Source: Pyrobaculum sp. (GTDB lineage: Archaea > Thermoproteota > Thermoprotei > Thermoproteales > Thermoproteaceae). From it: DNA of 19,901 bases. The translations under genes were made by a program, and so were the position numbers. Shown one piece after another: positions 1 to 11,963 of the stretch. The notes under the pieces were generated by a model that was given only the letters and a program-made list of their open reading frames with translations, was not told the origin of the DNA and made no database searches. The stretch lies in the NCBI GenBank assembly GCA_046293555.1, contig JBKBOT010000010.1, positions 33,379-53,279 on the forward strand, written 5' to 3'. Position 1 is the stretch's first letter. Each line of letters begins with the position of its first letter.

Positions 1-877
1 GGGGGTACCTGGAGGTTATATTTCTCACAAGCTCTTCTCTAAATATAGACACCACCCTATCTACATCCCCACCACATATAAGGTAGGGGAGGTAGGGCTT
101 GAGTACGTGGGGGGTTTTATTTAATAATGACACATATATATATTGTTTAACTCCCACTATACTTACATTTTTCGCCAAATTAATTAAAGTCATGTTTAAT
201 TTAGTTATTAAAATAGCCTCTGTCACATTATCTACAGCCGCCTCGCTCCCCCATGTCTTCCACGTCACGTGTTTGAGATAAGCCGACACGTTGCCATATG
301 CCACATCTGCTGCCATCCTGACGGCAGTATCCACGTCGTGACTGGCCACATACTGTCGGAAAGCCTCTAGAAATATGTCGCTTTTGTTATCCACAGCTTT
401 CCCCAAGGCAGCCACGCCATAGGTGGCTAGAAGCAGCTGTCTAGCCATAGCTCTAGCCGCGCTGTAGGCAGATTCCAGCTGGGCGAGTTCCCTACAGGCA
501 GCCTCTGTGGCGTTTGAAAACTGGAGCGCCGCCTCTCTAAACTTAGACGTGTAGTTATCCACTGTATTCCACACGTTCTCCCAATAGAGCTCTAACGCCT
601 TGTCTAATATAGTCCAGGGGGTCACCGCGCTGGGGTAAAGCCTGGAGAGAAACCGCGCCTTTTCTTCAAGGTCTGGGCCAAAGATAACCACGGGGTAGAC
701 TTCTTCTCCCACCTTCTCCATGTTTTTAACAATAGAGCTCACCACCACCGGCTCTATGTCTCGTGGCATTAGTTCCGACTCGTGATAAACCAAGACGTCA
801 AAAACCTTCGGGGCGTGTAGGGCCAGGTAGGTATATATAGCTAACACAACTGCAGCCACGGCGAGAAGTTTGCGCAC
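1..877 (-). CDS. 5' part of a large membrane protein, probably MMPL/RND-family transporter (runs off the left edge)
   Basis: Manual translation: GTG at 877, open for 292 codons to the edge (MRKLLAVAAVVLAIYTYLALHAPKVFDVLVYHESELMPRDIEPVVV...). One N-terminal TM helix, then an extracytoplasmic region with several N-x-S/T sequons (NYT, NAT, NKS, NVS, NVT, NMT, NIT). The start resembles MMPL TM1 plus the porter-domain entry. TATA at 897-902. Family call is tentative because the C-terminal TMs are outside the window. Confidence 0.6.
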   Translation of the reverse strand, partial: MRKLLAVAAVVLAIYTYLALHAPKVFDVLVYHESELMPRDIEPVVVSSIVKNMEKVGEEVYPVVIFGPDLEEKARFLSRLYPSAVTPWTILDKALELYWENVWNTVDNYTSKFREAALQFSNATEAACRELAQLESAYSAARAMARQLLLATYGVAALGKAVDNKSDIFLEAFRQYVASHDVDTAVRMAADVAYGNVSAYLKHVTWKTWGSEAAVDNVTEAILITKLNMTLINLAKNVSIVGVKQYIYVSLLNKTPHVLKPYLPYLICGGDVDRVVSIFREELVRNITSRYP

Positions 878-892
878 AGCCCACTTTTTAAG

Positions 893-904
893 AAAGTATA
901 TAAG
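893..904. promoter_or_regulatory. Shared bidirectional TATA box (AAAGTATATAAG)
   Basis: TATATA at 897-902 lies 20-25 nt from GTG 877 (minus) and 22-27 nt from GTG 924 (plus), the spacing typical of leaderless archaeal transcripts. Confidence 0.55.
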
Positions 905-923
905 TTTAAGGCGTGACTGTCCC

Positions 924-2063
924 GTGAGACATATTTACATTATCGCCATGGGGGACTTTAAGGCTCGTGCCGTCCGCTATTTACTCACGGCGATAGCCAT
1001 CGGGGTGGGGGTGGCCCTACTGGTGGCGTTAGTTACAGTAAGCGATGCGACGAGAGAATATGTGGAACAGACGCTGTATAGAGTATATCCCGCAGACATC
1101 ATGATGTATTCCGAGTCTATAAACATCCCCCAGCACCTAGTCGACGTAATTAAGAAAAGCCCCGTGGTGGAGTCAGCTGAGGGCATCATAATAGCCACTG
1201 GGGTGTATGGGGGGTCGGTAGTGTCAATTGTGGGAATCCCGCTTTATGCCATAGATTATTTCGCCATAGACCTAAGTCAAGGCAGATTGCCTATCGCAAA
1301 AGGCGAGGCAGCGGTTGAGGAGTCTCTCGGCGTAAAACCCGGCGAGGTAATCACGTTAAAGATATATTCAGGGGTATTGGGTGGAGAAAAAACGCTGGAA
1401 GTCAAAGTAACTGGCGTCATGCGTAGCTTCCTGAGGGGGTTCGTGGGGGCCTTTAGGCTAAATCTTGTGGTAGTTCCTCTAGACTGGCTCCAAGAAAACC
1501 TAGGCACAGGCCCTTTTATAAACGCCGTCCTCATAACGATGAAAGACAAGAATCAAGTCAGGCCGTTTTACTTGTCGCTAAAAGAACACTATAGAGACGC
1601 CCAGGTCTACACACAGGAGGGGCTGTTAAACACAGTGTCGCAAGTCTTCAACGCGTTAAACGCAATATTTGCCGTCATTAGCGCCGCCGCGTTGATCACC
1701 GCGGCGATAACCACCTTCGCGGTGATGTCTATAACTACAAACGAGAGGCTGAGGGAGTTTGGCCTACTTAAGGCTGTAGGCATCTCCTCAAGAGATATCG
1801 TCCTCTCCGTGGTAATAGAGGTCGTGTCTATCGCCGCCGTGGCTGGCGTCGGCGGTATGGCTATAGGACATATGGGGGCAGGCTTGGTAAAACAGATGCT
1901 AGTAGGCATGGGGATAAATTTCAACGTGCCGATAGCCTTCAAGCCCCACTACGCCTTGTTGGCACTATTCACGTCGCTAGCCGTGGCGCTAGCTGGAGCC
2001 CTCCTGCCGCTGTATAAAGTGTCCAAGCTAAGACCGCTGGAGATCTTGAGGTTATGGCAGTAA
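924..2063 (+). CDS. ABC transporter permease, MacB/FtsX/LolE family
   Basis: N-terminal 'RAVRYLLTAIAIGVGVALL' TM, large extracytoplasmic domain, 'ERLREFGLLKAVG' FtsX motif, three C-terminal TMs, terminal 'P..K.SKL.P.E.LR'. Start placed at in-frame GTG 924 from TATA spacing (track start 870 overlaps the divergent gene; ATG 948 is an alternative). Confidence 0.9.
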   Translation: MRHIYIIAMGDFKARAVRYLLTAIAIGVGVALLVALVTVSDATREYVEQTLYRVYPADIMMYSESINIPQHLVDVIKKSPVVESAEGIIIATGVYGGSVVSIVGIPLYAIDYFAIDLSQGRLPIAKGEAAVEESLGVKPGEVITLKIYSGVLGGEKTLEVKVTGVMRSFLRGFVGAFRLNLVVVPLDWLQENLGTGPFINAVLITMKDKNQVRPFYLSLKEHYRDAQVYTQEGLLNTVSQVFNALNAIFAVISAAALITAAITTFAVMSITTNERLREFGLLKAVGISSRDIVLSVVIEVVSIAAVAGVGGMAIGHMGAGLVKQMLVGMGINFNVPIAFKPHYALLALFTSLAVALAGALLPLYKVSKLRPLEILRLWQ

Positions 2064-2818
2064 AGCTAAGGGGAGTTACTAAGATATATAAAAACGGCGC
2101 TGTGGAGGTTCACGCGCTAGACGACGTCTCTCTACATGCTTCCACAGGCGAGGTGGTGGCCTTTATGGGGCCTTCTGGCTCCGGCAAAACCACACTGCTT
2201 AACATAGTCGCCACGTTAGACAAGCCCACATATGGAGAGGTCTACGTATTGGGGGCAGATGTTGGGAAGATGCCCGAAAAAAAGCTGGAGAAATTCAGGC
2301 TGAGAAACATAGGCTATCTCTTCCAGAGTTACAACCTTGTGACCTACCTAACGGCGGAACAAAACGTGGCATTACCACTGATAGCTCTCGGCGTGAAGAA
2401 AGATCTGGCGTTACTACGGGCTAAGATCTTACTGGAGCTAGTGGGCTTAGAGAAGGCGGCGGGGATGTATCCATACCAGATGTCCGGCGGTATGCAGCAA
2501 CGCGCCGCGGTGGCTAGAGCGCTATCTACCAACCCGCCGCTCTTAATACTTGACGAGCCTACTTCAAACGTGGATCTCGAAAACGCCGCGACGTTATTAG
2601 GCCTAATAACAGCCATAAATAAGGTCATGAAAACCACAGTGCTTATAGCCACCCACGATCCAGACGTCGCCGCCATAGCCACCAGGGTGATATATATGCG
2701 CGGCGGCCGTGTGTTTGAAACCACAGAGCCGCCGAGAAAAGAGTTGAAGATAGAGCTGGAAAAAGTATTTACAGCCTACGAGAAGTTAAGACAACTAGAC
2801 TCATCAATTGGGCTATGA
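2054..2818 (+). CDS. ABC transporter ATP-binding protein, LolD/MacB family
   Basis: Walker A GPSGSGKTT, 'IGYLFQSYNL' Q-loop, signature MSGGMQQR, Walker B LILDEPT, H-switch ATHD; overlaps the permease stop. Confidence 0.95.
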   Translation: MAVKLRGVTKIYKNGAVEVHALDDVSLHASTGEVVAFMGPSGSGKTTLLNIVATLDKPTYGEVYVLGADVGKMPEKKLEKFRLRNIGYLFQSYNLVTYLTAEQNVALPLIALGVKKDLALLRAKILLELVGLEKAAGMYPYQMSGGMQQRAAVARALSTNPPLLILDEPTSNVDLENAATLLGLITAINKVMKTTVLIATHDPDVAAIATRVIYMRGGRVFETTEPPRKELKIELEKVFTAYEKLRQLDSSIGL

Positions 2819-4620
2819 GAGCTCTCGCCTTGTTGTTACTTCTTGCATATCTGGCTCTCGCCTCTACAGTCGTCGTGACGTATACCATAAAGCCTACTGG
2901 CGAGGTCACCACAGTTGTAAAAACTAGAGAAGTGCTTATAAACAACGGCCCCACGCCTTTGAATAAATCCGGCGTGTTGATCCCGCCTTACTCTACTCTT
3001 GTTTTTGAAAAACTTGCCGACAATGTCTACCCCCCGTTTCTTAAAGTAGAGCGAGAGATAAGGTACATAGGCGGCGAGTTATCCAGAGGGGTCCTACAGG
3101 CTGATAACAACACTGTGGTTATGCTCACACTTAAGATATCCACATTGCTCCCCATCTCTGTCCCGGTAATGATCTCTCTGGCTACAGATGGAAAAGTTGC
3201 GGTGATTTACGAGAGGTTGCCCACATCGATTTCGCAGATGTCCGGCAGCACTATCTACCACTGGGCACTGGTGGTGGAGAACTACACCGAGTTTAACCTC
3301 AGCTTTAGGGTGAGAGATTTTGGTAGTTTTGGAGCTGTGAGACTACCCACAGTGTTGTTAACATCCTCCCTAGATTTAAACCGAACTATTGCCGTCACTA
3401 GAGAGCAACTTAAAAGCCTCCATACGGCTAAGACACGGCTACAAAACCTCACGGACGCAATCTCGCTTTATTTAGACATGGTGTACACACAGACACAGAA
3501 CTTGACGCAGTTGATCCAGGTATTTAACCTCACCGGCAGGGCTCTGGGCGAGGGCGCTCGGGCTCTAAACCTATCTACATACGCCCTAGAGGCCTTGAGG
3601 CGGCAGATAATGGCGATTGGAGACGCCGCAGGCGGGGCGGCGGCCACGATTAACCAAAGCCGTCTGTTGGTTGACTACCAATACCTAGCCCTAATGACCT
3701 TGGCCAACACGTTGGAGACACAGGCAGCCGCTCTGACGTCTTACCGCTCTGCCACCAGAGAGGCCATCAAGGGGCTTGAAGACACCAGAGGCCAGCTTTG
3801 GTCAATAAGAGAAAGCCTATACGCCCAAAGACAAGCCATAAATAACGCCATTAGGGAGGTAGAGAGAGCTAAGACAAGGATCTCCTCAATGCCTGTCAAC
3901 ACTACTGTCGTCATAGAGGCTCTAGACGTAGTTCTCAGACAGCTTTACGCCACAAGGGAGTCTATAGACTCGTTAATAGACGTGGTAGATAGCATAATTG
4001 CGATAACAGACTCTACAGTATACACTCTTGAAGCTATTGACAAAAATCTAGGCGAGTTAGCTCCCCTCCTCAACTCCACAGCTATATCTACCCGAAAAAA
4101 CGCCACAGAGCTCATGGAAAACATGCCACAAATTCTAGCCAACGCCTCTAGAAACCTAGCCGAGATATCGAGCAATCTCTACAAGACAGCCGACGAGGTG
4201 AATCAATACTACTCCCCCCTCTACGACGCGGCAAACACCTTGAGGGAGGTAGGCAGCCGGCTTCTACAGTCGGCAAAAGAGCTTGAAGAATTTCGACAAG
4301 CTCAACTAAAGGCCGTGCCTAAACTAGGCGCGTTGTTGGCAACAATATATAACTACACGGGGTATGTGTCTACAGAAGGAAAAAGGCTAGAACTAGCAGA
4401 GAGCGCACTAGTTCGATATCACTACGTCGTAAATGTCAGCAGGTTGGAGCTACAGTACTACATAGAGCTGCCCGTCGCCATGAAAAACGTCACATTGCCC
4501 ACCACCACGGCGTCTTTAGCGCCAGTAGAGACAAGACAGACACCAATCGGGTTAAGCGTCGTGTTGGCTATCGCCGCTGCGTTTGCCCTAGGGATGTTAT
4601 TAAAAAAACTATTTGGATAG
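2815..4620 (+). CDS. Secreted, C-terminally anchored long coiled-coil/helical surface protein of unknown function
   Basis: Signal peptide MRALALLLLLAYLALA; beta-rich N-domain of about 185 aa; about 350 aa of heptad-like helices; short beta segment; T/P-rich linker; C-terminal TM plus KK; about 17 N-x-S/T sequons. ATGA overlap with the ATPase. Confidence 0.85.
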   Translation: MRALALLLLLAYLALASTVVVTYTIKPTGEVTTVVKTREVLINNGPTPLNKSGVLIPPYSTLVFEKLADNVYPPFLKVEREIRYIGGELSRGVLQADNNTVVMLTLKISTLLPISVPVMISLATDGKVAVIYERLPTSISQMSGSTIYHWALVVENYTEFNLSFRVRDFGSFGAVRLPTVLLTSSLDLNRTIAVTREQLKSLHTAKTRLQNLTDAISLYLDMVYTQTQNLTQLIQVFNLTGRALGEGARALNLSTYALEALRRQIMAIGDAAGGAAATINQSRLLVDYQYLALMTLANTLETQAAALTSYRSATREAIKGLEDTRGQLWSIRESLYAQRQAINNAIREVERAKTRISSMPVNTTVVIEALDVVLRQLYATRESIDSLIDVVDSIIAITDSTVYTLEAIDKNLGELAPLLNSTAISTRKNATELMENMPQILANASRNLAEISSNLYKTADEVNQYYSPLYDAANTLREVGSRLLQSAKELEEFRQAQLKAVPKLGALLATIYNYTGYVSTEGKRLELAESALVRYHYVVNVSRLELQYYIELPVAMKNVTLPTTTASLAPVETRQTPIGLSVVLAIAAAFALGMLLKKLFG

Positions 4621-6333
4621 TTCTACAAATTTCTGTTTACTCCAGCCAGTCAGCGAGAGGCCTGTCACCTTAGTCCAGATCTTTGGATCTACTTTAAACG
4701 ACTGTTCTACCCTCTGTCTGTGTCCCACCACGTTGTAGGTACAGAATGGGAACACGCGGCCGTCAGGCGTGGCGTAGTGAATGTCACAACGTTGTACTCT
4801 CTCAATGTCGTAATTCATGGTGTCCATAAAGTGCATTATGCCTATACCCACAATGTTGAAGAAAAAGCGCCCTAGCGACTCGTAGTCTTTTTTAACGAGG
4901 AAGTCGTAAATGAGGTCTCTTACCCTCCTGTGTCTGACGGCTTTTAACAACTTCAGCGTCTTTACCTTAGCCACCTGTCTATAGACTCCACCCCTCTTGG
5001 CGGTGTTGTATACCTCCCAAGCGCCTTTCTCAAAGGCGTCTACATCTACAAGCTTGGTTATTGGGTATATCCTCCTCTCGTCCTCGTCGTAGTAGATAAA
5101 CGTGGCTGCGCCACACATGGGGTTCATGCTAAATAACGGCCGTGGGGAATCCGTGAGGACTTCCACCATCTTGGCTATAGCCACCGGCCAGTTTGTAGGC
5201 CTCCAGTCCCACCTACTAACCGCGCCGCCGGTCTGTTTCTCGATTTCTATTATCGTGTCGGGTATCGTGATGCGATATTTTCTAAGCTCCTCCTTGCTAT
5301 ACAGCTTTGCTCTTCCAGAGAAGCTCACCGGCTGTATATTTATCCACCTCACCACGTCTCTATTCTGAAGCGCAAAGTCTACAATCTTGCCGAGATCCTT
5401 GTCGTTATAGTTACGGGCTAAAGTAACCACGAGCACAATTGACCTATGGCCTAGCTTCCTGGCGTTTTCAATAACTCTCTCCTTAGTTATCCTATAGGCC
5501 TTGGGGTGGTAGAGCCGGTGTCTCCAAAGCCCCTCGTTTTTCTCATCTAGGGTGTCAAACTGGAGATATAGCGTAGAGGCCCCCGCATCTAGTAGCGCCT
5601 TATAGTACTCAATGTCGTTAGCAAGCCTGATGCCGTTGGTGTTTATCTCCACATGTGTAAAGCCGAGCTTTTTGGCCATCCTCACTATTTCCGGCAGGTC
5701 GTCTCTTAACGTGGGCTCCCCCCCAGAGATCTGGACGGCATTTGGGGGCCAAGGCTTCTGTGCTCTCAACGTTCTAAACATGTATTCAATCTGCTCTAGA
5801 GTGGGCTCGTAGACGTAGCCAGAGGCGCCCGCAGTGGCAAAACACACGGGACACGTCATATTACATCTATTGGTGACATCAATTATGGCAAGTACCGTAT
5901 TTGACTTATGTACAGGGCAGAGGCCACAGCCGTCGGGACAAGAGCCCATGTCCTTATAGAACTCCAAATCTGTATAGGGGTTGGCGAGCCCCTTGGCTAT
6001 ATATTCAGGTCTATCCCACTGCAGGAAGTAGTAATACATCTCGGCGTCGCCCCAATATAGGTCCTCAAATACGCCATGTTCTGGACATGTTTTCTTAAGC
6101 CAGATCGCGCCGTTTTCTTCATACACCACCGAGGGTATCCTTTTGGTACATACCGGACATACCGAAAGAGAGGCCTTGATGACTCTTGAATTTCTGGAAA
6201 GGCCATACTGACGTCTCAAGGCTTCTTGCCACTTTTCGTTCATTAAGGTGTTTCTATATCTCTCTGCTAGGCTGTATTTAGACAAGTCCACAAGCCTCTT
6301 TGGCCTCTCAGATATCTCAACCACCTGTTGCAT
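4609..6333 (-). CDS. tes: Tetraether lipid synthase (GDGT-macrocyclic archaeol synthase), radical SAM enzyme of the MJ0619 family
   Basis: N-terminal CPVC...KKTCPEHG.F.D.YW.D metal site, CPDGCGLC..H auxiliary-cluster motif, radical SAM CNMTCPVC, SGGEPT, NTNG, C-terminal MHFMD..NYD.ER..RC.IHY.TPDG...PFC.YN. Confidence 0.88.
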   Translation of the reverse strand: MQQVVEISERPKRLVDLSKYSLAERYRNTLMNEKWQEALRRQYGLSRNSRVIKASLSVCPVCTKRIPSVVYEENGAIWLKKTCPEHGVFEDLYWGDAEMYYYFLQWDRPEYIAKGLANPYTDLEFYKDMGSCPDGCGLCPVHKSNTVLAIIDVTNRCNMTCPVCFATAGASGYVYEPTLEQIEYMFRTLRAQKPWPPNAVQISGGEPTLRDDLPEIVRMAKKLGFTHVEINTNGIRLANDIEYYKALLDAGASTLYLQFDTLDEKNEGLWRHRLYHPKAYRITKERVIENARKLGHRSIVLVVTLARNYNDKDLGKIVDFALQNRDVVRWINIQPVSFSGRAKLYSKEELRKYRITIPDTIIEIEKQTGGAVSRWDWRPTNWPVAIAKMVEVLTDSPRPLFSMNPMCGAATFIYYDEDERRIYPITKLVDVDAFEKGAWEVYNTAKRGGVYRQVAKVKTLKLLKAVRHRRVRDLIYDFLVKKDYESLGRFFFNIVGIGIMHFMDTMNYDIERVQRCDIHYATPDGRVFPFCTYNVVGHRQRVEQSFKVDPKIWTKVTGLSLTGWSKQKFVELSK

Positions 6334-6353
6334 AAACCCGCGCGGATCTCTAT

Positions 6354-6393
6354 CTTAAAAATTTTTTAACTCTATTCACGAAAAGTTGTGAAT
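6354..6393. promoter_or_regulatory. Divergent tes/trmB promoter with inverted repeat ATTCAC-N8-GTGAAT
   Basis: AT block CTTAAAAATTTTTTAAC (6354-6370) between divergent starts 6333 and 6392; palindrome at 6374-6393 overlaps the regulator start codon. Confidence 0.45.
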
Positions 6394-7105
6394 GCAACAA
6401 CTAGAGTTATTACTAAACCTATTGGGTATAGCTAGGAGAGAGGTAGATATATACCTGCTGTTAGTAGAAAAAGGCGCGCTATCTGCAAGAGAGGTTGCCG
6501 AACAGCTGAACATACCATATACAAAGGTATACACATACCTCTCAAAACTTCAAAAACTTGGCGTTGTTATTACTGAAGAAAAGCCGCACCCCCGGAGATA
6601 TAGGGCATTGCCGCCTGTAGATATCTACAAGAAGCTCGTATCGGCGACATCTGAAGTTCTCAGACAGATAAAGCCCTTTTTCGACAGCCTACAGCTAGTT
6701 TACGAAAGTAAACAAGTCACCCCCACATTCCTAACCCTGATTAAAGGTAGAGAAAAGATAGTGGAGCTTATAGAAGAGGTGATAAAATCTACAGATGCCG
6801 AGGTACATGTGGCCCTCCCCTTTGTAGAACTGCTTACCGACAGACTAGTTACAGCTATAGTCGAGGAGTCTAAACGCGTGACAATAAAGATGCTTATAAA
6901 TGACCAACTTAGGCCACATCTAGACCTGCCGCCTAGGGTAGAGGTGAAAACCACACAGGAGATGTTCGGCGGGGGGGTCATTGGGGATGCGGTGGTTATC
7001 TTTGTAAAACATGGAGGCGAGCTTTCCGGAATATACTCTAACGAGAGACATCTCATCGAGATAGCGCGTACATATTTTAACCACCTGTGGCAAAGACACA
7101 TGTGA
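6392..7105 (+). CDS. TrmB-family transcriptional regulator
   Basis: N-terminal wHTH 'LGI..REV.IY..L...G..SAREVAE.LNIP.TKVY..L.KL...G.V'; C-terminal effector-binding-like domain ('I.GRE.I...I.E.I...'). Confidence 0.88.
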   Translation: MQQLELLLNLLGIARREVDIYLLLVEKGALSAREVAEQLNIPYTKVYTYLSKLQKLGVVITEEKPHPRRYRALPPVDIYKKLVSATSEVLRQIKPFFDSLQLVYESKQVTPTFLTLIKGREKIVELIEEVIKSTDAEVHVALPFVELLTDRLVTAIVEESKRVTIKMLINDQLRPHLDLPPRVEVKTTQEMFGGGVIGDAVVIFVKHGGELSGIYSNERHLIEIARTYFNHLWQRHM

Positions 7106-7158
7106 TGTAGAGAGAAAATGGGGCCTCTGACAAGTGAAGAAAGTCTGGAGCGCTGACC
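7100..7158 (+). ncRNA. C/D-box guide sRNA
   Basis: C box GTGATGT (7102-7108, overlaps the trmB stop), D' CTGA (7127-7130), C' GTGAAGA (7134-7140), 12-nt guide AAGTCTGGAGCG, D CTGA (7153-7156). Fills the convergent intergenic gap exactly. Confidence 0.8.
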
Positions 7159-9524
7159 TACTCCCTGGCTTCTGAATAATCTTTTTTTACTATAGTGAAG
7201 ACCTTTATATTGGGGACCTCTTTCAACATGTCTACAAATTCTCTAGATTGAGAAGCTATAACTAGCTGATAGCGTGAGGCAAGGCTTTTTATTAGATCCA
7301 TAAAGGCAGTTCTCACGTTTATATCTACATAAGGAATCGGCTCGTCAAATATCAAAAAGCCCAACCTTATCTGCGAAGTCTCTCTTAACGCCAGCGCGAG
7401 GGCTATAGCTAACGAGAGGCGTTGGCCGTCACTTAGCTTAGAGATGCCAAGCCGGTCACCTGTCGGAGAGATTGCGTAAAAATCGTAATGACCCTTTCTG
7501 TGCTCTATATCTGCACCCACCTTTACAATATCTCCATATTTGTAAATACTAAGAAAGATGTCATTAAATAAGTTTCTAGCTTTTTCAAGTAGTCTAACTC
7601 TTGTATTTATCTTTACAAGCTCTAGTCTAGACTTTATTTCTTGTAGCTTTCCAAATATATACATTATGTCCTCATGTCTTTTCCTAAGGACTTCAGGGTC
7701 CTCGCCAACTTCTCTAACTACCTCCTCCAGTAAGGACTTCTCCCTATGGAATTCCGCCAGGTGGGTAGAAACTCTCTCTAGCTCATATAAGGCCTCTCTC
7801 CAACGTAACTCAACGTCGAGAATTTCGTCGGAAAGCCCCACCTTTCTAAATTCGGCCTCTAGCTCTTTAAGCCTACGGCGTAGCTCTCTGACTCGTAGCG
7901 CCCTCCTGTATTTAGACACAGCCTCTGCGATCTTCCGTCTATCTATCCTGTTGAGCAACTCCCTTAGTTGTACTTCCTTTTTCTCAAGTTGTCTCAACGC
8001 CCTCTCCGCCTGGAGGGCCTTATTTACAGTCTCCTCTCTCTCCAGCCGTAGCCCCTCTGTTTTTGACTTTATGGCTAGATATTGAGCCACGTCGCCTTCT
8101 AGTATCTCCATCTCTTCTACTACCCGTTCTACCTCACGTATCTTCTCTCTTAAGGACTCCACCTCACGTATTACGTCGCCATGTCTTTCCCCCAGTTCCT
8201 GCAGGACGTGTGTCAAATGTTCTCTGTCGGCAGGAGCCCCACAGATGGGACATGTGGCCAGTCCAATCTCCGCCATGTAGGACACCACAGTCTTTAGTGA
8301 GGTAGAGAAGGCGGCTTTTCTCTCCGCGGCTTCAAGTCTTTTCCTGAGTTCTGCCAACATAGCCTTGGCCTCCCCAGCCGAGGAGAAGGCCTTCTGCAGC
8401 TCCTTATATCTTAGAAAAGACCTCTCTAGTCTCTTTAAGGCAGATTCCAACTCTGCAACCTCGCCATCTAGCCTTCTCGTCTTGTCGACATACTGCAGAT
8501 ATGCCTTCTGTAGCTCTGACTTCTGGAGCTCTATATCTCTCGACAAGGTCTCTAAAGCGTCGTAAGTATCAACCATGGCAGATGACAAGGTCTCTACATC
8601 TGGCGACATGAGGCGTTCCAAGAGAGATGGGGCTAGGGCGTGTTCAAACTCTTCAGCCACTTCCCTCAAGGCCTTTCTTATCTTCTCTAAAGTCTCCATG
8701 TCGACATAATACTCCTCTGTTTCCAACAGCTCGAGCTCAGACCTAGTCTTGTAGTACTCTAGTAACAACGTCTCGTATTCTTTGATTTTCTCTATGTGGG
8801 AAACCCGCCGTTTTGACAAATCCTCTATTTCTCTAGACAGCCTCTCTTCTTTCTTCTTTACCTCCGCGATCTCGCCGACGATGGCACTTAGCCTAGAGAC
8901 AATATTGGAATATCCGCCGTATTTCCTAAAGAGTTCTTTATATCTCTCGTACTTCCCCAGCCTTTTTCTCAAATTTTCTGCTTGGCTTAACAAAAGTTTT
9001 TCTATCGACGTGACTGCTTTAAACACCCCATCTATAATGTCGATACCAAATAGCTTGTCTACAGAGACAGACCTCTTCTGGGAGGTGCCGTAGATAAAAC
9101 CCTCTAAGGTGCGGTGCGATATATACACCAGGCGGTCATATAGGAGTTCATCTACGTCAAGAAGCTCCGCCAGTTTTTCTTCAGCCTCTCTTCTTCTATA
9201 CTCCACGTTGTTTACCACGGCGATGACCTTCTCGCCACCCCTCCTGTTTAACTCTCTCTCAATTTTAACGACATCGCTGCCGTTTGTGAGCTCTAGAGAG
9301 ACTCTAGCCTCATAAGCCTCTGTGTTTATAAGGTCTACCAACTTCGCCACTTTTTCCCTAACCTCCAGCTCCCTCCCAAACAGCGCGTACTCTATGGCAT
9401 ATAGAAGGGAGGTCTTGCCTGCGCCAATTCTACCCCATAGTACATTTACTTGGCCAAAATGGACTACATGCCTCCCTTTGTATGACCTAAAGTTCTCAAC
9501 TTCAATCTTGTTTATCCTCCACAT
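7158..9524 (-). CDS. rkd-4: Arcadin-4, SMC/Rad50-like ATPase of the arcade cluster
   Basis: 'I.VENFRSY', Walker A GRIGAGKTS, long coiled coils with central CPIC zinc-hook-like motif, signature LSDGQR, Walker B LIFDEP; last gene of the crenactin cluster. Confidence 0.85.
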   Translation of the reverse strand: MWRINKIEVENFRSYKGRHVVHFGQVNVLWGRIGAGKTSLLYAIEYALFGRELEVREKVAKLVDLINTEAYEARVSLELTNGSDVVKIERELNRRGGEKVIAVVNNVEYRRREAEEKLAELLDVDELLYDRLVYISHRTLEGFIYGTSQKRSVSVDKLFGIDIIDGVFKAVTSIEKLLLSQAENLRKRLGKYERYKELFRKYGGYSNIVSRLSAIVGEIAEVKKKEERLSREIEDLSKRRVSHIEKIKEYETLLLEYYKTRSELELLETEEYYVDMETLEKIRKALREVAEEFEHALAPSLLERLMSPDVETLSSAMVDTYDALETLSRDIELQKSELQKAYLQYVDKTRRLDGEVAELESALKRLERSFLRYKELQKAFSSAGEAKAMLAELRKRLEAAERKAAFSTSLKTVVSYMAEIGLATCPICGAPADREHLTHVLQELGERHGDVIREVESLREKIREVERVVEEMEILEGDVAQYLAIKSKTEGLRLEREETVNKALQAERALRQLEKKEVQLRELLNRIDRRKIAEAVSKYRRALRVRELRRRLKELEAEFRKVGLSDEILDVELRWREALYELERVSTHLAEFHREKSLLEEVVREVGEDPEVLRKRHEDIMYIFGKLQEIKSRLELVKINTRVRLLEKARNLFNDIFLSIYKYGDIVKVGADIEHRKGHYDFYAISPTGDRLGISKLSDGQRLSLAIALALALRETSQIRLGFLIFDEPIPYVDINVRTAFMDLIKSLASRYQLVIASQSREFVDMLKEVPNIKVFTIVKKDYSEARE

Positions 9525-9672
9525 CTATGCCGAAAGCCTTGAGGTATTCTACCAATACGGCTCTAGCCGCGCGGGTCCCCCCCTCTCTATATGCCACTAC
9601 CAGACTCTCTACTAGCCTGCCCTCGTCACTACTTCCAAAAACCTTTCTTACCTCCTCAAGAATTATGTCCAC
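9502..9672 (-). CDS. rkd-3: Arcadin-3 (56-aa helical protein; absent from the ORF track)
   Basis: Manual translation MDIILEEVRKVFGSSDEGRLVESLVVAYREGGTRAARAVLVEYLKAFGIDVEDKQD*; GTG preceded by SD-like GGAGAGG; lies between arcadin-2 and the SMC-like gene and overlaps the latter's start. Confidence 0.75.
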   Translation of the reverse strand: MDIILEEVRKVFGSSDEGRLVESLVVAYREGGTRAARAVLVEYLKAFGIDVEDKQD

Positions 9673-9695
9673 AACCTCTCCACAATACCCATATA

Positions 9696-10286
9696 TTAAC
9701 TCTTCGACCTAAGTATTCTAACCCACTCGTTTTCCAGGAGTTTACTCCGTTCAGCCGGCTCCTCCGCCCTTTTTGGCGGCTGTTCCCTCTTTTCTACCCT
9801 TCGCTCTTCTAACTTTTGGTCGACATATTTCCTTAATTTCTCATAAAGAGATGTTTCAAGTTTTTTGATTTCTGTATTTATGTATTCTAACAATGTAGCT
9901 TTAAGAGAGTCAACAATTTTATTTATGTCAAACTGTGGGAAAGAAATCTGGCGAGGTTTTGCATATATCTTGACCTCAACCCCCTCGACGCCTCTAGAGG
10001 GGTCTACCACCATTAAGCCCACGCCATGTGACTTAAAATATTTAGAATCTACAAAAGGCCAAGCCTCTGGCAATACCGCCAGATATATCTTCACCGCGTT
10101 TAGACTCAGCAAGGCCCCCACTTGTTTATATAGCTCTGCCCCCTCGTATATCTCTGTAAGATAAAAGCCGAGAGCCACTTTGTTAAGCCCCTCTTCAAAC
10201 CACGCAACATTGCCGTCAGTGTTTATATACCTCATTCCGAGAGTTTCAGCGAAATATCTTATTGCCAGTAATTTTACATACTCCAC
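9696..10286 (-). CDS. rkd-2: Arcadin-2, crenactin polymerisation inhibitor
   Basis: Directly downstream of crenactin; C-terminal ENEWVRILRSKS matches the crenactin-binding C-terminal helix I recall for P. calidifontis arcadin-2. Confidence 0.88.
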   Translation of the reverse strand: MEYVKLLAIRYFAETLGMRYINTDGNVAWFEEGLNKVALGFYLTEIYEGAELYKQVGALLSLNAVKIYLAVLPEAWPFVDSKYFKSHGVGLMVVDPSRGVEGVEVKIYAKPRQISFPQFDINKIVDSLKATLLEYINTEIKKLETSLYEKLRKYVDQKLEERRVEKREQPPKRAEEPAERSKLLENEWVRILRSKS

Positions 10287-10309
10287 AAAATCTCAGTTAC
10301 CTAAATTTA

Positions 10310-11963
<1,654 letters not shown>

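What the first reader, a model, noticed from the sequence alone, without database searches (positions are those of the whole stretch)
1..6333. Candidate envelope/tetraether-lipid trafficking system: MMPL-like transporter + LolCDE/MacB-type ABC + coiled-coil stalk protein beside tetraether synthase
Seen: a divergon sharing one TATA box drives an MMPL-like gene one way and a translationally coupled permease-ATPase-601-aa protein operon the other way. That operon ends overlapping the stop of tes by 12 nt. Known: MMPL/RND proteins export lipids (MmpL3, HpnN), LolCDE/MacB ABCs extract or mechanically move envelope components, and Tes makes membrane-spanning GDGTs. How GDGTs are flipped or distributed is, to my knowledge, unresolved. 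Inference: these four genes may form one lipid or envelope handling machine linked to GDGT biogenesis. Convergent adjacency to tes could be chance.
Basis: partly seen in the sequence, partly recalled or inferred. Interest (0 to 1): 0.75.

Follow-up and report, generated by a model that had tools for sequence, protein, structure and literature searches.

The report
Archaeal MacB-type pump with coiled-coil partner
A hot-spring archaeon carries a conserved, uncharacterised envelope machine (an ATP-driven MacB-type transporter plus a very long coiled-coil surface protein, next to an MMPL lipid-type exporter), but its position beside the tetraether-lipid synthase gene looks like a local accident of gene order, not a functional link.

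Summary
The sequence observation holds. The left ORF is a full MMPL/RND gene of 886 aa. It diverges across a 49-bp spacer from an overlapping operon: MacB/LolCE-type permease, ABC ATPase and a 601-aa protein. That operon's end overlaps the tes stop by 12 nt.

- **Conserved unit:** ATPase plus 601-aa protein. They were adjacent in 35 of 36 related loci, spanning Pyrobaculum, other Thermoproteaceae, Thermofilum and further unnamed families of the class. The permease sat directly upstream in 28 of 35 assessable loci.
- **The 601-aa protein:** it founds a small, unnamed family limited to Thermoproteota. It has a signal peptide, a beta-sandwich, a single antiparallel coiled-coil hairpin of about 25 nm, a C-terminal membrane anchor and 17 N-glycosylation sequons.
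- **MMPL:** linked in 21 of 22 loci from Thermoproteaceae plus one sister genus, and in none of 14 other loci.
- **tes:** adjacent only in Pyrobaculum (13 of 18 genomes) and 2 of 8 genomes of a sister genus. Where separated, tes stays beside its TrmB-family regulator and the crenactin cluster.

Most likely this is a type VII ABC engine with a new adaptor spanning the space beneath the S-layer. MMPL is probably a co-regulated neighbour. A role in GDGT trafficking is unsupported.

The parts
2..877 (-). N-terminal 292 codons of an 886-aa MMPL/RND transporter gene that continues left of the window
   Evidence: The full ORF from the own genome matches Pfam MMPL at E 9.8e-63. AF2 model pLDDT 79.8, with a helical insert at about residues 87-290 in the first ectodomain. 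Foldseek matches MmpL4/5/3. D449-Y450 and D783-Y784 are invariant in 18 orthologues and align to the D-Y pairs of MmpL5.
878..926 (.). 49-bp divergent promoter spacer with one TATATAAG box (898-905), about 25 nt from both start codons
   Evidence: Sequence. Promoter function and leaderless transcripts are inferred from spacing only.
927..2063 (+). MacB/LolCE-type (type VII ABC) permease, 378 aa from GTG 927 (the ORF list starts it at TTG 870)
   Evidence: Pfam FtsX and MacB_PCD. A profile of 26 orthologues hits MacB at 1.7e-29 and LolE at 7.9e-26 over nearly full length. Most orthologues are 378-383 aa.
2054..2818 (+). ABC ATPase, 254 aa, overlapping the permease gene by 10 nt
   Evidence: ABC_tran E 4.1e-32. 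Nearest NCBIfam models are LolD, MacB and DevA, all below cut-off.
2815..4620 (+). 601-aa glycoprotein-like coiled-coil hairpin protein (CC601), overlapping the ATPase gene by 4 nt
   Evidence: No Pfam family. AF2 (pLDDT 79.1): N-terminal hydrophobic helix 2-13, beta-sandwich 18-187, helices 188-357 out and 364-539 back, strands 543-557, TM helix 579-600. 17 N-X-S/T sequons against 4.9 +/- 2.0 in shuffles. Directly follows the ABC ATPase gene in 35 of 36 related loci.
4609..6333 (-). tetraether lipid synthase Tes, convergent, overlapping the CC601 stop by 12 nt; a neighbour, not part of the module
   Evidence: NCBIfam rSAM_GDGT_ether equivalog, 640.8 bits against a 450 cut-off. Adjacency is not conserved.
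6392..7105 (+). TrmB-family regulator, divergent from tes; the neighbour that tes keeps
   Evidence: Pfam TrmB E 6.5e-18. Found next to tes in 4 of 5 loci where tes is away from the ABC module.

Best explanation
The functional unit is a type VII (MacB/LolCDE-class) ABC engine, made of permease and ATPase, together with a dedicated partner of a new family, CC601.

CC601 is anchored in the membrane by its C-terminal helix. A beta-sandwich sits at the membrane surface, next to where the permease's extracytoplasmic domain would lie. A single antiparallel coiled-coil hairpin of about 25 nm projects into the wide space under the S-layer.

Proposed mechanism (inferred): ATP hydrolysis moves the permease's outer domains, as in MacB, LolCDE and FtsEX, without carrying a substrate across the bilayer. 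This motion is passed to CC601. CC601 then acts as the adaptor that takes a hydrophobic, amphiphilic or peptide cargo from the outer face of the membrane and moves it away from the cell.

The MMPL gene is a proton-driven exporter that shares the promoter region in Thermoproteaceae and one sister genus. It is probably co-regulated and acts on related hydrophobic cargo, but it is not an obligate part of the machine. The adjacency to tes is inherited local gene order.

Shown here: gene identities, conservation of the ABC-CC unit, the limited MMPL linkage, and the non-conserved tes linkage. Inferred: physical contact between CC601 and the permease, the direction and nature of the cargo, and co-regulation with MMPL.
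For: **ABC-CC unit is conserved.** The CC gene directly follows the ABC ATPase gene in 35 of 36 related loci. In L009 the CC gene is cut by the contig end and was seen by tblastn only. The permease is directly upstream in 28 of 35 assessable loci. Flanking genes differ between families: MFS, enolase, M48 peptidase, CDF and solute-binding protein genes.

**Transporter class.** The permease profile matches MacB, LolE, LolC and LolF over nearly its whole length.

**CC601 topology is extracytoplasmic.** It has a hydrophobic N-terminus and a C-terminal TM helix. All 17 sequons lie between them, a threefold enrichment.

**The hairpin is real.** The two arms change length together between lineages: 136/136, 139/159, 173/193-200 and 183/220-228 residues.

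**There is a space for it to span.** The Pyrobaculum S-layer extends about 37 nm from the membrane on its own Ig-domain stalk (bioRxiv 10.64898/2026.08.21.746120; abstract, section 5 and passages).

**MMPL.** It is divergently adjacent in 21 of 22 loci from f1 and g9. It keeps both D-Y relay pairs. All 13 of its sequons lie in the predicted ectodomains.
Against: - No direct evidence exists that CC601 touches the permease.
- In g6, g8 and g9 the permease gene is not next to ABC-CC (7 of 35 loci). In g9 its best homologue lies more than 1 Mb away.
- One metagenome-assembled genome (L007) lacks the ATPase gene between permease and CC.
- CC601 has no HlyD/MFP, MlaD or LytM domain, so the adaptor role rests on analogy.
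- No substrate is indicated by any neighbouring gene.
- MMPL orthologues are unlinked in g6 and g8. They were not found at E <= 1e-10 in f8, f10, f11, f12 and f14, where the ABC-CC unit exists.
- No RNA data were available.
Confidence: 0.5

Rival explanations
1. One reading: MMPL, the ABC pair and CC601 form one machine that flips, extracts or distributes GDGT lipids made by the neighbouring Tes.
For: tes is directly adjacent, with a 12-nt overlap, in this window and in 13 of 18 Pyrobaculum genomes. MMPL relatives export lipids; PDB matches are to the MmpL3 trehalose-monomycolate exporter and the hopanoid transporter HpnN. No GDGT transporter was found in print in the searches.
Against: - tes is in 61 of 62 genomes of the order. 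It is adjacent to the module only in Pyrobaculum and in 2 of 8 g2 genomes. It lies 22-26 kb away in 5 g2 genomes and elsewhere in g3, g6, g8 and g9.
- None of the 14 loci from g6, g8 and further families has tes within the roughly 20 kb fetched.
- tes is convergent, so it shares neither transcript nor promoter with the operon.
- When separated, tes stays with TrmB and the crenactin cluster.
- Type VII ABC systems do not move substrates across the bilayer (established for MacB, LolCDE and FtsEX; reviews listed, abstracts only).
- A membrane-spanning GDGT has no obvious destination in a cell without an outer membrane.
Confidence: 0.06
2. The ABC pair and CC601 work like FtsEX-EnvC. No cargo is moved. 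ATP-driven motion is passed along the coiled coil to switch on a remote envelope enzyme or to remodel the S-layer, for example during growth or division.
For: Same transporter class. A long coiled-coil hairpin partner is the hallmark of FtsEX-EnvC (PMC7668044, abstract). In Pyrobaculum the module lies about 2.5 kb from the crenactin/arcadin cell-shape cluster. Thermoproteales are recalled to lack both FtsZ and Cdv division systems (recall, not tested).
Against: - The permease profile matches MacB/LolE far better than true FtsX (1.7e-29 against 7.8e-10).
- CC601 has no catalytic or LytM-like domain.
- No hydrolase gene is conserved nearby.
- Proximity to the crenactin cluster is lost together with tes in most g2 genomes.
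Confidence: 0.2
3. MMPL is functionally unrelated to the ABC-CC unit. The two merely share a promoter region through inherited gene order.
For: MMPL orthologues are unlinked in g6 and g8. In one Pyrobaculum genome MMPL lies about 47 kb from the module (G040). The ABC-CC unit exists in families with no MMPL orthologue at E <= 1e-10, and family f4 has an MMPL but no CC match.
Against: The divergent pairing survives across two families. In g9 it persists even though the permease gene has left the locus and the other flanks differ (21 of 22 loci). This is more than expected from neutral synteny at 30-45% protein identity.
Confidence: 0.35
4. CC601 is a structural surface protein, an S-layer stalk or anchor like SlaB, and its place in the ABC operon is secondary.
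For: It has a signal peptide, a beta-sandwich, a coiled coil, a C-terminal anchor and many sequons. This resembles the description of SlaB in the passages.
Against: In Pyrobaculum the S-layer protein anchors itself and forms its own stalk from Ig-like domains. The CC601 chain folds back, so both ends are at the membrane and no distal domain is offered to a lattice. Operon linkage to the ATPase is seen in 35 of 36 loci.
Confidence: 0.04

Closest known systems
MacAB-type tripartite pumps (MacB + MacA adaptor; Gram-positive MacAB-like pumps; DevBCA glycolipid exporter)
   Same: The permease has an FtsX four-helix domain and a MacB-like outer domain. The ATPase is of the LolD/MacB/DevA type. A third operon gene encodes a membrane-anchored protein with an alpha-helical hairpin pointing away from the membrane.
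   Different: CC601 has no HlyD/lipoyl/beta-barrel adaptor domains and no sequence relative in the PDB. Its hairpin is several times longer, about 25 nm. It is anchored at the C-terminus. There is no outer membrane or TolC. That Gram-positive pumps and DevBCA use such adaptors is recalled, not tested here.
FtsEX-EnvC (and FtsEX with PcsB, RipC, CwlO)
   Same: A type VII ABC engine paired with an extracytoplasmic coiled-coil hairpin protein; signalling by mechanotransmission (abstracts).
   Different: The permease is closer to MacB/LolE than to FtsX. CC601 lacks a LytM or hydrolase domain. Archaea of this group have no peptidoglycan.
LolCDE
   Same: Same transporter class. LolE, LolC and LolF are among the best PDB matches, and LolD is the best NCBIfam match for the ATPase.
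   Different: Scores are far below the equivalog cut-offs: lolCE 24.7 against 362, LolD 191 against 308. No LolA/LolB pathway or outer membrane is expected.
Mycobacterial MmpL3 / MmpL4 / MmpL5 and HpnN (MMPL/RND lipid and siderophore exporters)
   Same: Two MMPL repeats, the same fold, and both Asp-Tyr relay pairs. MmpL4 carries a helical 'coiled-coil domain' in its outer part, according to PDB entry titles.
   Different: Only 17-20% identity. The helical insert here is in the first ectodomain. No MmpS-like gene was seen. The substrate is unknown. NCBIfam equivalog and subfamily cut-offs are not reached.
YbbAP-TesA
   Same: A type VII ABC system proposed to extract hydrophobic compounds from the membrane with an outer partner protein (abstract).
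   Different: The partner there is a lipid hydrolase, and YbbP is a duplicated permease. The match to YbbP is weak, 1.7e-09.

Membership tests
MMPL family (RND superfamily) | Two MMPL transmembrane repeats | tested here: met
   PF03176 at E 9.8e-63 with two stretches on the 886-aa ORF.
MMPL family (RND superfamily) | Fold of 12 helices with two ectodomains like MmpL3/4/5 | tested here: met
   AF2 model pLDDT 79.8. Foldseek E about 1e-21, TM-score by target 0.60-0.65, about 600-660 aligned columns.
MMPL family (RND superfamily) | Asp-Tyr proton-relay pairs in the two central helices | tested here: met
   D449, Y450, D783 and Y784 are invariant in 18 orthologues. They align to the DY pairs of MmpL5 in the HMMER alignment. 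That these pairs are the relay is established knowledge, recalled.
MmpL3, HpnN or BstA orthologue | NCBIfam equivalog score cut-off | tested here: not met
   MmpL3 73.5 bits against 1400; HpnN 32.3 against 752; BstA 15.1 against 1400.
Type VII ABC transporter (MacB/LolCDE/FtsEX class) | FtsX four-helix domain plus an extracytoplasmic MacB-like core domain between helices 1 and 2 | tested here: met
   PF02687 E 5e-17 (residues 269-387) and PF12704 E 3.3e-13 (residues 38-230). Profile match to MacB over positions 8-382.
Type VII ABC transporter (MacB/LolCDE/FtsEX class) | Cognate LolD/MacB/FtsE-type ATPase | tested here: met
   ABC_tran full-length match. The best NCBIfam models are LolD, MacB, DevA and FtsE, at E 1e-52 to 1e-56. 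The gene overlaps the permease gene.
LolCDE lipoprotein-release system | Equivalog scores for LolC/E and LolD | tested here: not met
   lolCE 24.7 bits against 362.45; LolD 191.1 against 307.75.
Membrane fusion / periplasmic adaptor proteins (HlyD, MacA) | HlyD, lipoyl or beta-barrel domains | tested here: not met
   No Pfam family for CC601 at E <= 0.01. Four homologues scanned at E <= 1 gave only weak coiled-coil matches.
MlaD/MCE (label that one source gives to homologues) | MlaD domain PF02470 | tested here: not met
   No MlaD hit. There was only a weak sub-threshold Mce4_CUP1 coiled-coil match (E 0.0039, 17.3 bits against a 32.6 cut-off) and a structural lead with TM 0.41/0.57.
Tetraether lipid synthase Tes | NCBIfam equivalog cut-off and radical SAM core | tested here: met
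   NF045702 640.8 bits against 450. Radical_SAM E 3.3e-26.
Functional gene cluster with tes | Conserved linkage beyond close relatives | tested here: not met
   Adjacent in 13 of 18 g1 genomes, 2 of 8 g2 genomes and 0 of 2 g3 genomes. Not adjacent in any g6, g8 or g9 genome where both genes lie on one contig. Absent from all 14 loci from g6, g8 and further families.

The most novel reading that the evidence does not exclude
CC601 oligomerises on the MacB-type permease into a helical conduit or lever about 25 nm long. This crosses most of the roughly 37-nm space between membrane and S-layer. It would be an archaeal counterpart of bacterial tripartite pumps, built from an unrelated protein. In Thermoproteales it would work together with the MMPL exporter, whose first ectodomain carries its own helical extension, to carry lipidic or glycolipid cargo from the membrane surface to or through the S-layer.
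Probability: 0.2. Interest if true: 0.75.

Novelty: new variant of a known kind. Interest (0 to 1): 0.45.

Why it matters
How hyperthermophilic archaea move material across the wide space between membrane and S-layer is essentially unknown. No archaeal type VII ABC system with an outer partner turned up in the literature searches.

A conserved operon that pairs a MacB-type engine with a hairpin about 25 nm long gives a concrete, testable candidate for such a machine. It also defines a new protein family of 75 representative clusters among 1.84 billion proteins.

The negative result matters too. tes neighbourhoods in Pyrobaculum should not be read as a lipid-trafficking cluster. The conserved neighbour of tes is a TrmB-family regulator.

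Tried and rejected
- **Complex prediction:** permease (378 aa, 26-row alignment) with CC601 (601 aa, 26-row alignment). Score 0.08 against a mark of 0.32. The tool's verdict was 'no answer'; this counts neither for nor against binding. One permease copy was used because a dimer plus full CC601 would exceed the size limit.
- **Sequencing runs:** no RNA holder was listed. The only holder is a DNA run that may be the source sample.
- **Foldseek of the whole CC601 model against the PDB:** this gave only generic long coiled coils (chemoreceptor cytoplasmic domains, MukB, Rad50). For the beta-sandwich it gave low-TM matches to mu-homology domains. No functional lead came from it.
- **ESM Atlas:** the best structural neighbour is an unnamed Bacillota cluster of 1723 members (TM 0.66/0.62). 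It is a lead only, and I could not fetch or identify it.
- **PDB sequence searches:** the CC601 beta-domain profile gave 0 hits at E <= 1. The ~160-aa downstream protein gave nothing below E 0.1.
- **Literature:**
  - 'mmpl' + 'archaea' + 'tetraether' returned 0 papers.
  - Locus tags PAE2281-PAE2286 returned 0 papers.
  - None of the 20 listed papers for MmpL with crenarchaeal genus names contained 'MmpL'.
  - None of the listed type VII ABC papers dealt with archaea.
- **Shared TATA box:** I considered reading it as evidence of strict co-regulation and rejected that. Other Pyrobaculum spacers carry two separate boxes.
Full report
**What is in the window.** By the names of its closest protein homologues and related contigs, the window comes from a Pyrobaculum genome. 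It lies at G000:C10:33379-53279, at the end of that contig.

- 2..877 on the minus strand, running off the window.
- 870..2063, 2054..2818 and 2815..4620 on the plus strand, with overlaps of 10 and 4 nt.
- 4609..6333 on the minus strand, overlapping the end of the 601-aa gene by 12 nt.

**The left gene is MMPL.** I fetched the DNA left of the window from the same genome. The ORF is 886 aa. A short stretch of it outside the window reads N in the copy held here, so 33 codons are unknown.

The evidence for MMPL membership is as follows:
- It matches Pfam MMPL at E 9.8e-63 in two stretches.
- Its AF2 model (pLDDT 79.8) superposes on MmpL4, MmpL5 and MmpL3 with TM-score by target 0.60-0.65.
- D449-Y450 and D783-Y784 are invariant in 18 orthologues and align with the Asp-Tyr pairs of MmpL5.

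It does not reach any NCBIfam equivalog cut-off for MmpL3, HpnN or BstA, so its substrate is open. The model shows a helical insert of about 200 residues (87-290) in the first ectodomain. All 13 N-X-S/T sequons lie in the two predicted ectodomains.

**The operon.**
- *Permease.* It has FtsX and MacB_PCD domains. A profile of 26 orthologues matches MacB (1.7e-29) and LolE, LolC and LolF over almost its whole length. It matches true FtsX only weakly, at 7.8e-10. Its start is more likely GTG 927 than TTG 870, since most orthologues are 378-383 aa.
- *ATPase.* It is nearest to the LolD, MacB, DevA and FtsE models, all below their cut-offs.
- *CC601, the 601-aa protein.* It has no Pfam family. With a 22-row alignment, AF2 (pLDDT 79.1) gives a hydrophobic N-terminal helix, a beta-sandwich (18-187) and helices 188-281 and 283-357. 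A six-residue turn follows, then helices 364-463 and 466-539, two strands (543-557), a low-confidence linker and a terminal helix 579-600.

The breaks at 282 and 464-465 are too short for reversals. I therefore read CC601 as one antiparallel hairpin of about 170 residues per arm, roughly 25 nm. This is an inference from secondary structure, as I had no coordinates.

Two further results support that reading:
- Both arms change length together between lineages: 136/136, 139/159, 173/193-200 and 183/220-228 residues. That fits a real hairpin.
- The protein has 17 N-X-S/T sequons against 4.9 +/- 2.0 in shuffles, all between the two hydrophobic ends. This points to an extracytoplasmic glycoprotein.

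**Promoter region.** With GTG 877 for MMPL and GTG 927 for the permease, the spacer is 49 bp. It holds one TATATAAG at 898-905, about 25 nt from each start codon. Other Pyrobaculum genomes have 71-83-bp spacers with two TATA-like boxes.

**Which links are conserved.** I collected 36 related loci and annotated them with profiles built here. They are not all independent, and a few may be the same genomes reached by two routes.

| Link | Result |
|---|---|
| ABC ATPase directly upstream of the CC gene | 34 of 35 loci with a complete CC ORF |
| Same link, counting L009 (CC cut by contig end, seen by tblastn) | 35 of 36 |
| Permease directly upstream | 28 of 35 assessable loci |
| MMPL divergently adjacent | 21 of 22 loci from f1 (g1, g2, g3) and g9 |
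| MMPL adjacent in g6, g8 and further families | 0 of 14 loci |

- The one exception for the ATPase is a metagenome-assembled genome in which the permease gene runs straight into the CC gene (L007).
- The 7 loci without an adjacent permease are all from family f3 (g6, g8, g9). In g9 the best permease homologue sits alone more than 1 Mb away.
- The one MMPL exception in f1 and g9 is P. oguniense, a genome with known large inversions (abstract of PMC3558965 in the listing).

By whole-genome search, MMPL orthologues are present but unlinked in g6 and g8. They were not found at E <= 1e-10 in f8, f10, f11, f12 and f14, and were found in only 1 of 23 f15 genomes. Those families do carry the ABC-CC unit.

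In the non-Thermoproteales operons a conserved cytoplasmic protein of about 160 aa follows the CC gene (8 aligned examples). It has no match to a known family.

**tes.** tes is present in 61 of 62 genomes of the order. I compared its position with that of the CC gene:
- *g1 (Pyrobaculum):* adjacent in 13 of 18 genomes. Not adjacent in 3, at about 189 kb, about 207 kb and on another contig. Undetermined at contig ends in 2.
- *g2:* adjacent in 2 of 8 genomes. It lies 22-26 kb away on the same contig in 5, and on another contig in 1.
- *g3:* 0 of 2.
- *g9, g6, g8:* never adjacent where both lie on one contig. The nearest case is 19 kb.

In five loci where tes is away from the module, it still sits divergently beside a TrmB-family gene in 4. 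It sits beside the arcadin-4-like, crenactin and arcadin-1 genes in the 3 loci from family f1.

tes is also convergent to the operon.

**How wide the CC601 family is.** A profile of the beta-sandwich alone found 75 representative clusters at E <= 0.001, 36 at <= 1e-10 and 14 at <= 1e-30. This was among 1.84 billion representatives, and nearly all hits are 580-760 aa with the domain at the N-terminus.

Named members are from Pyrobaculum, Thermoproteaceae, 'Thermoprotei', Thermofilum and Bathyarchaeota. All are hypothetical or carry automatic labels such as MlaD, YhgE or chromosome segregation ATPase. I looked up 20 of the 75 representative clusters.

**Context from the literature.**
- A 2026 preprint (10.64898/2026.08.21.746120) reports that the Pyrobaculum S-layer extends about 37 nm from the membrane. 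One 292-kDa Ig-rich protein provides anchor, stalk and lattice. I read the abstract, section 5 and passages. This leaves a wide space that a 25-nm hairpin could largely cross. It also argues against CC601 being the S-layer stalk.
- A 2025 preprint (10.1101/2025.10.20.683597, passages) found GDGT methylase genes next to MFS, ABC and one HAE3 RND transporter. The authors read this as a response to amphiphiles, not as lipid trafficking.
- I found no paper on archaeal MMPL or archaeal type VII ABC systems in the searches.

**Reading.** The best-supported unit is a type VII ABC engine with a dedicated coiled-coil partner of a new family. By analogy with MacB-MacA, DevBCA and FtsEX-EnvC, the ATPase would drive the permease's outer domains. 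CC601 would pass on that motion or guide cargo away from the membrane surface.

I favour an extraction or efflux role (0.5) over a pure signalling role (0.2), because the permease is MacB/LolE-like rather than FtsX-like and no hydrolase is linked. MMPL is a probable co-regulated partner in Thermoproteales but is dispensable for the unit elsewhere. A GDGT role is not excluded by chemistry, but no comparative support is left for it (0.06).

**Limits.**
- There are no expression data.
- The complex prediction gave no verdict.
- There are no coordinates to measure the model.

Noticed in passing
window 7158-11963 (-): The crenactin 'arcade' cell-shape cluster lies just beyond tes and TrmB. It comprises an SMC/Rad50-like 788-aa gene (arcadin-4-like, 7158-9524), a 196-aa ORF (9696-10286), crenactin (10310-11599, Pfam Actin) and arcadin-1 (11622-11963, Pfam Arcadin_1 at 3.3e-42). 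The cluster is described in PMC5173319 (passages).
   Followed up: partly
window 4609-7105; loci L080, L081, L083, L084: tes keeps a divergent TrmB-family regulator as neighbour in 4 of 5 loci where it is away from the ABC module, across two families. In Thermoproteaceae the tes-TrmB pair also travels with the crenactin cluster, in 3 of 3 loci. This suggests TrmB-type control of tes.
   Followed up: partly
L007:8859-11803: In one metagenome-assembled Thermoproteales genome the permease gene is followed directly by the CC gene (stop and start overlap). The ABC ATPase gene is missing from the operon. This is either a clean deletion or an assembly artefact.
   Followed up: no
L064:11054-11533 and 7 other loci (alignment A3): Outside Thermoproteales the operon carries a fourth conserved gene for a cytoplasmic protein of about 160 aa. 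By eye its N-terminus looks like a ribbon-helix-helix DNA-binding motif. It has no Pfam or PDB match. CC homologues in these lineages also have an extra cytoplasmic helix after the membrane anchor.
   Followed up: partly
L002:7561-8187 (-), left of the window: A HAD-family hydrolase gene lies directly downstream of MMPL in most Thermoproteaceae loci and two genes away in g6. It is a possible functional partner of MMPL or just synteny.
   Followed up: no
L005:12358-14230; G041: tes appears split into two overlapping frames in Pyrobaculum sp. WP30. This is a frameshift or a sequencing error.
   Followed up: no
L048-L051 (genus g9): In g9 the MMPL gene diverges from ABC ATPase + CC with no permease in the locus. 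In two of the four loci (L050, L051) the MMPL gene is broken into three ORFs.
   Followed up: partly
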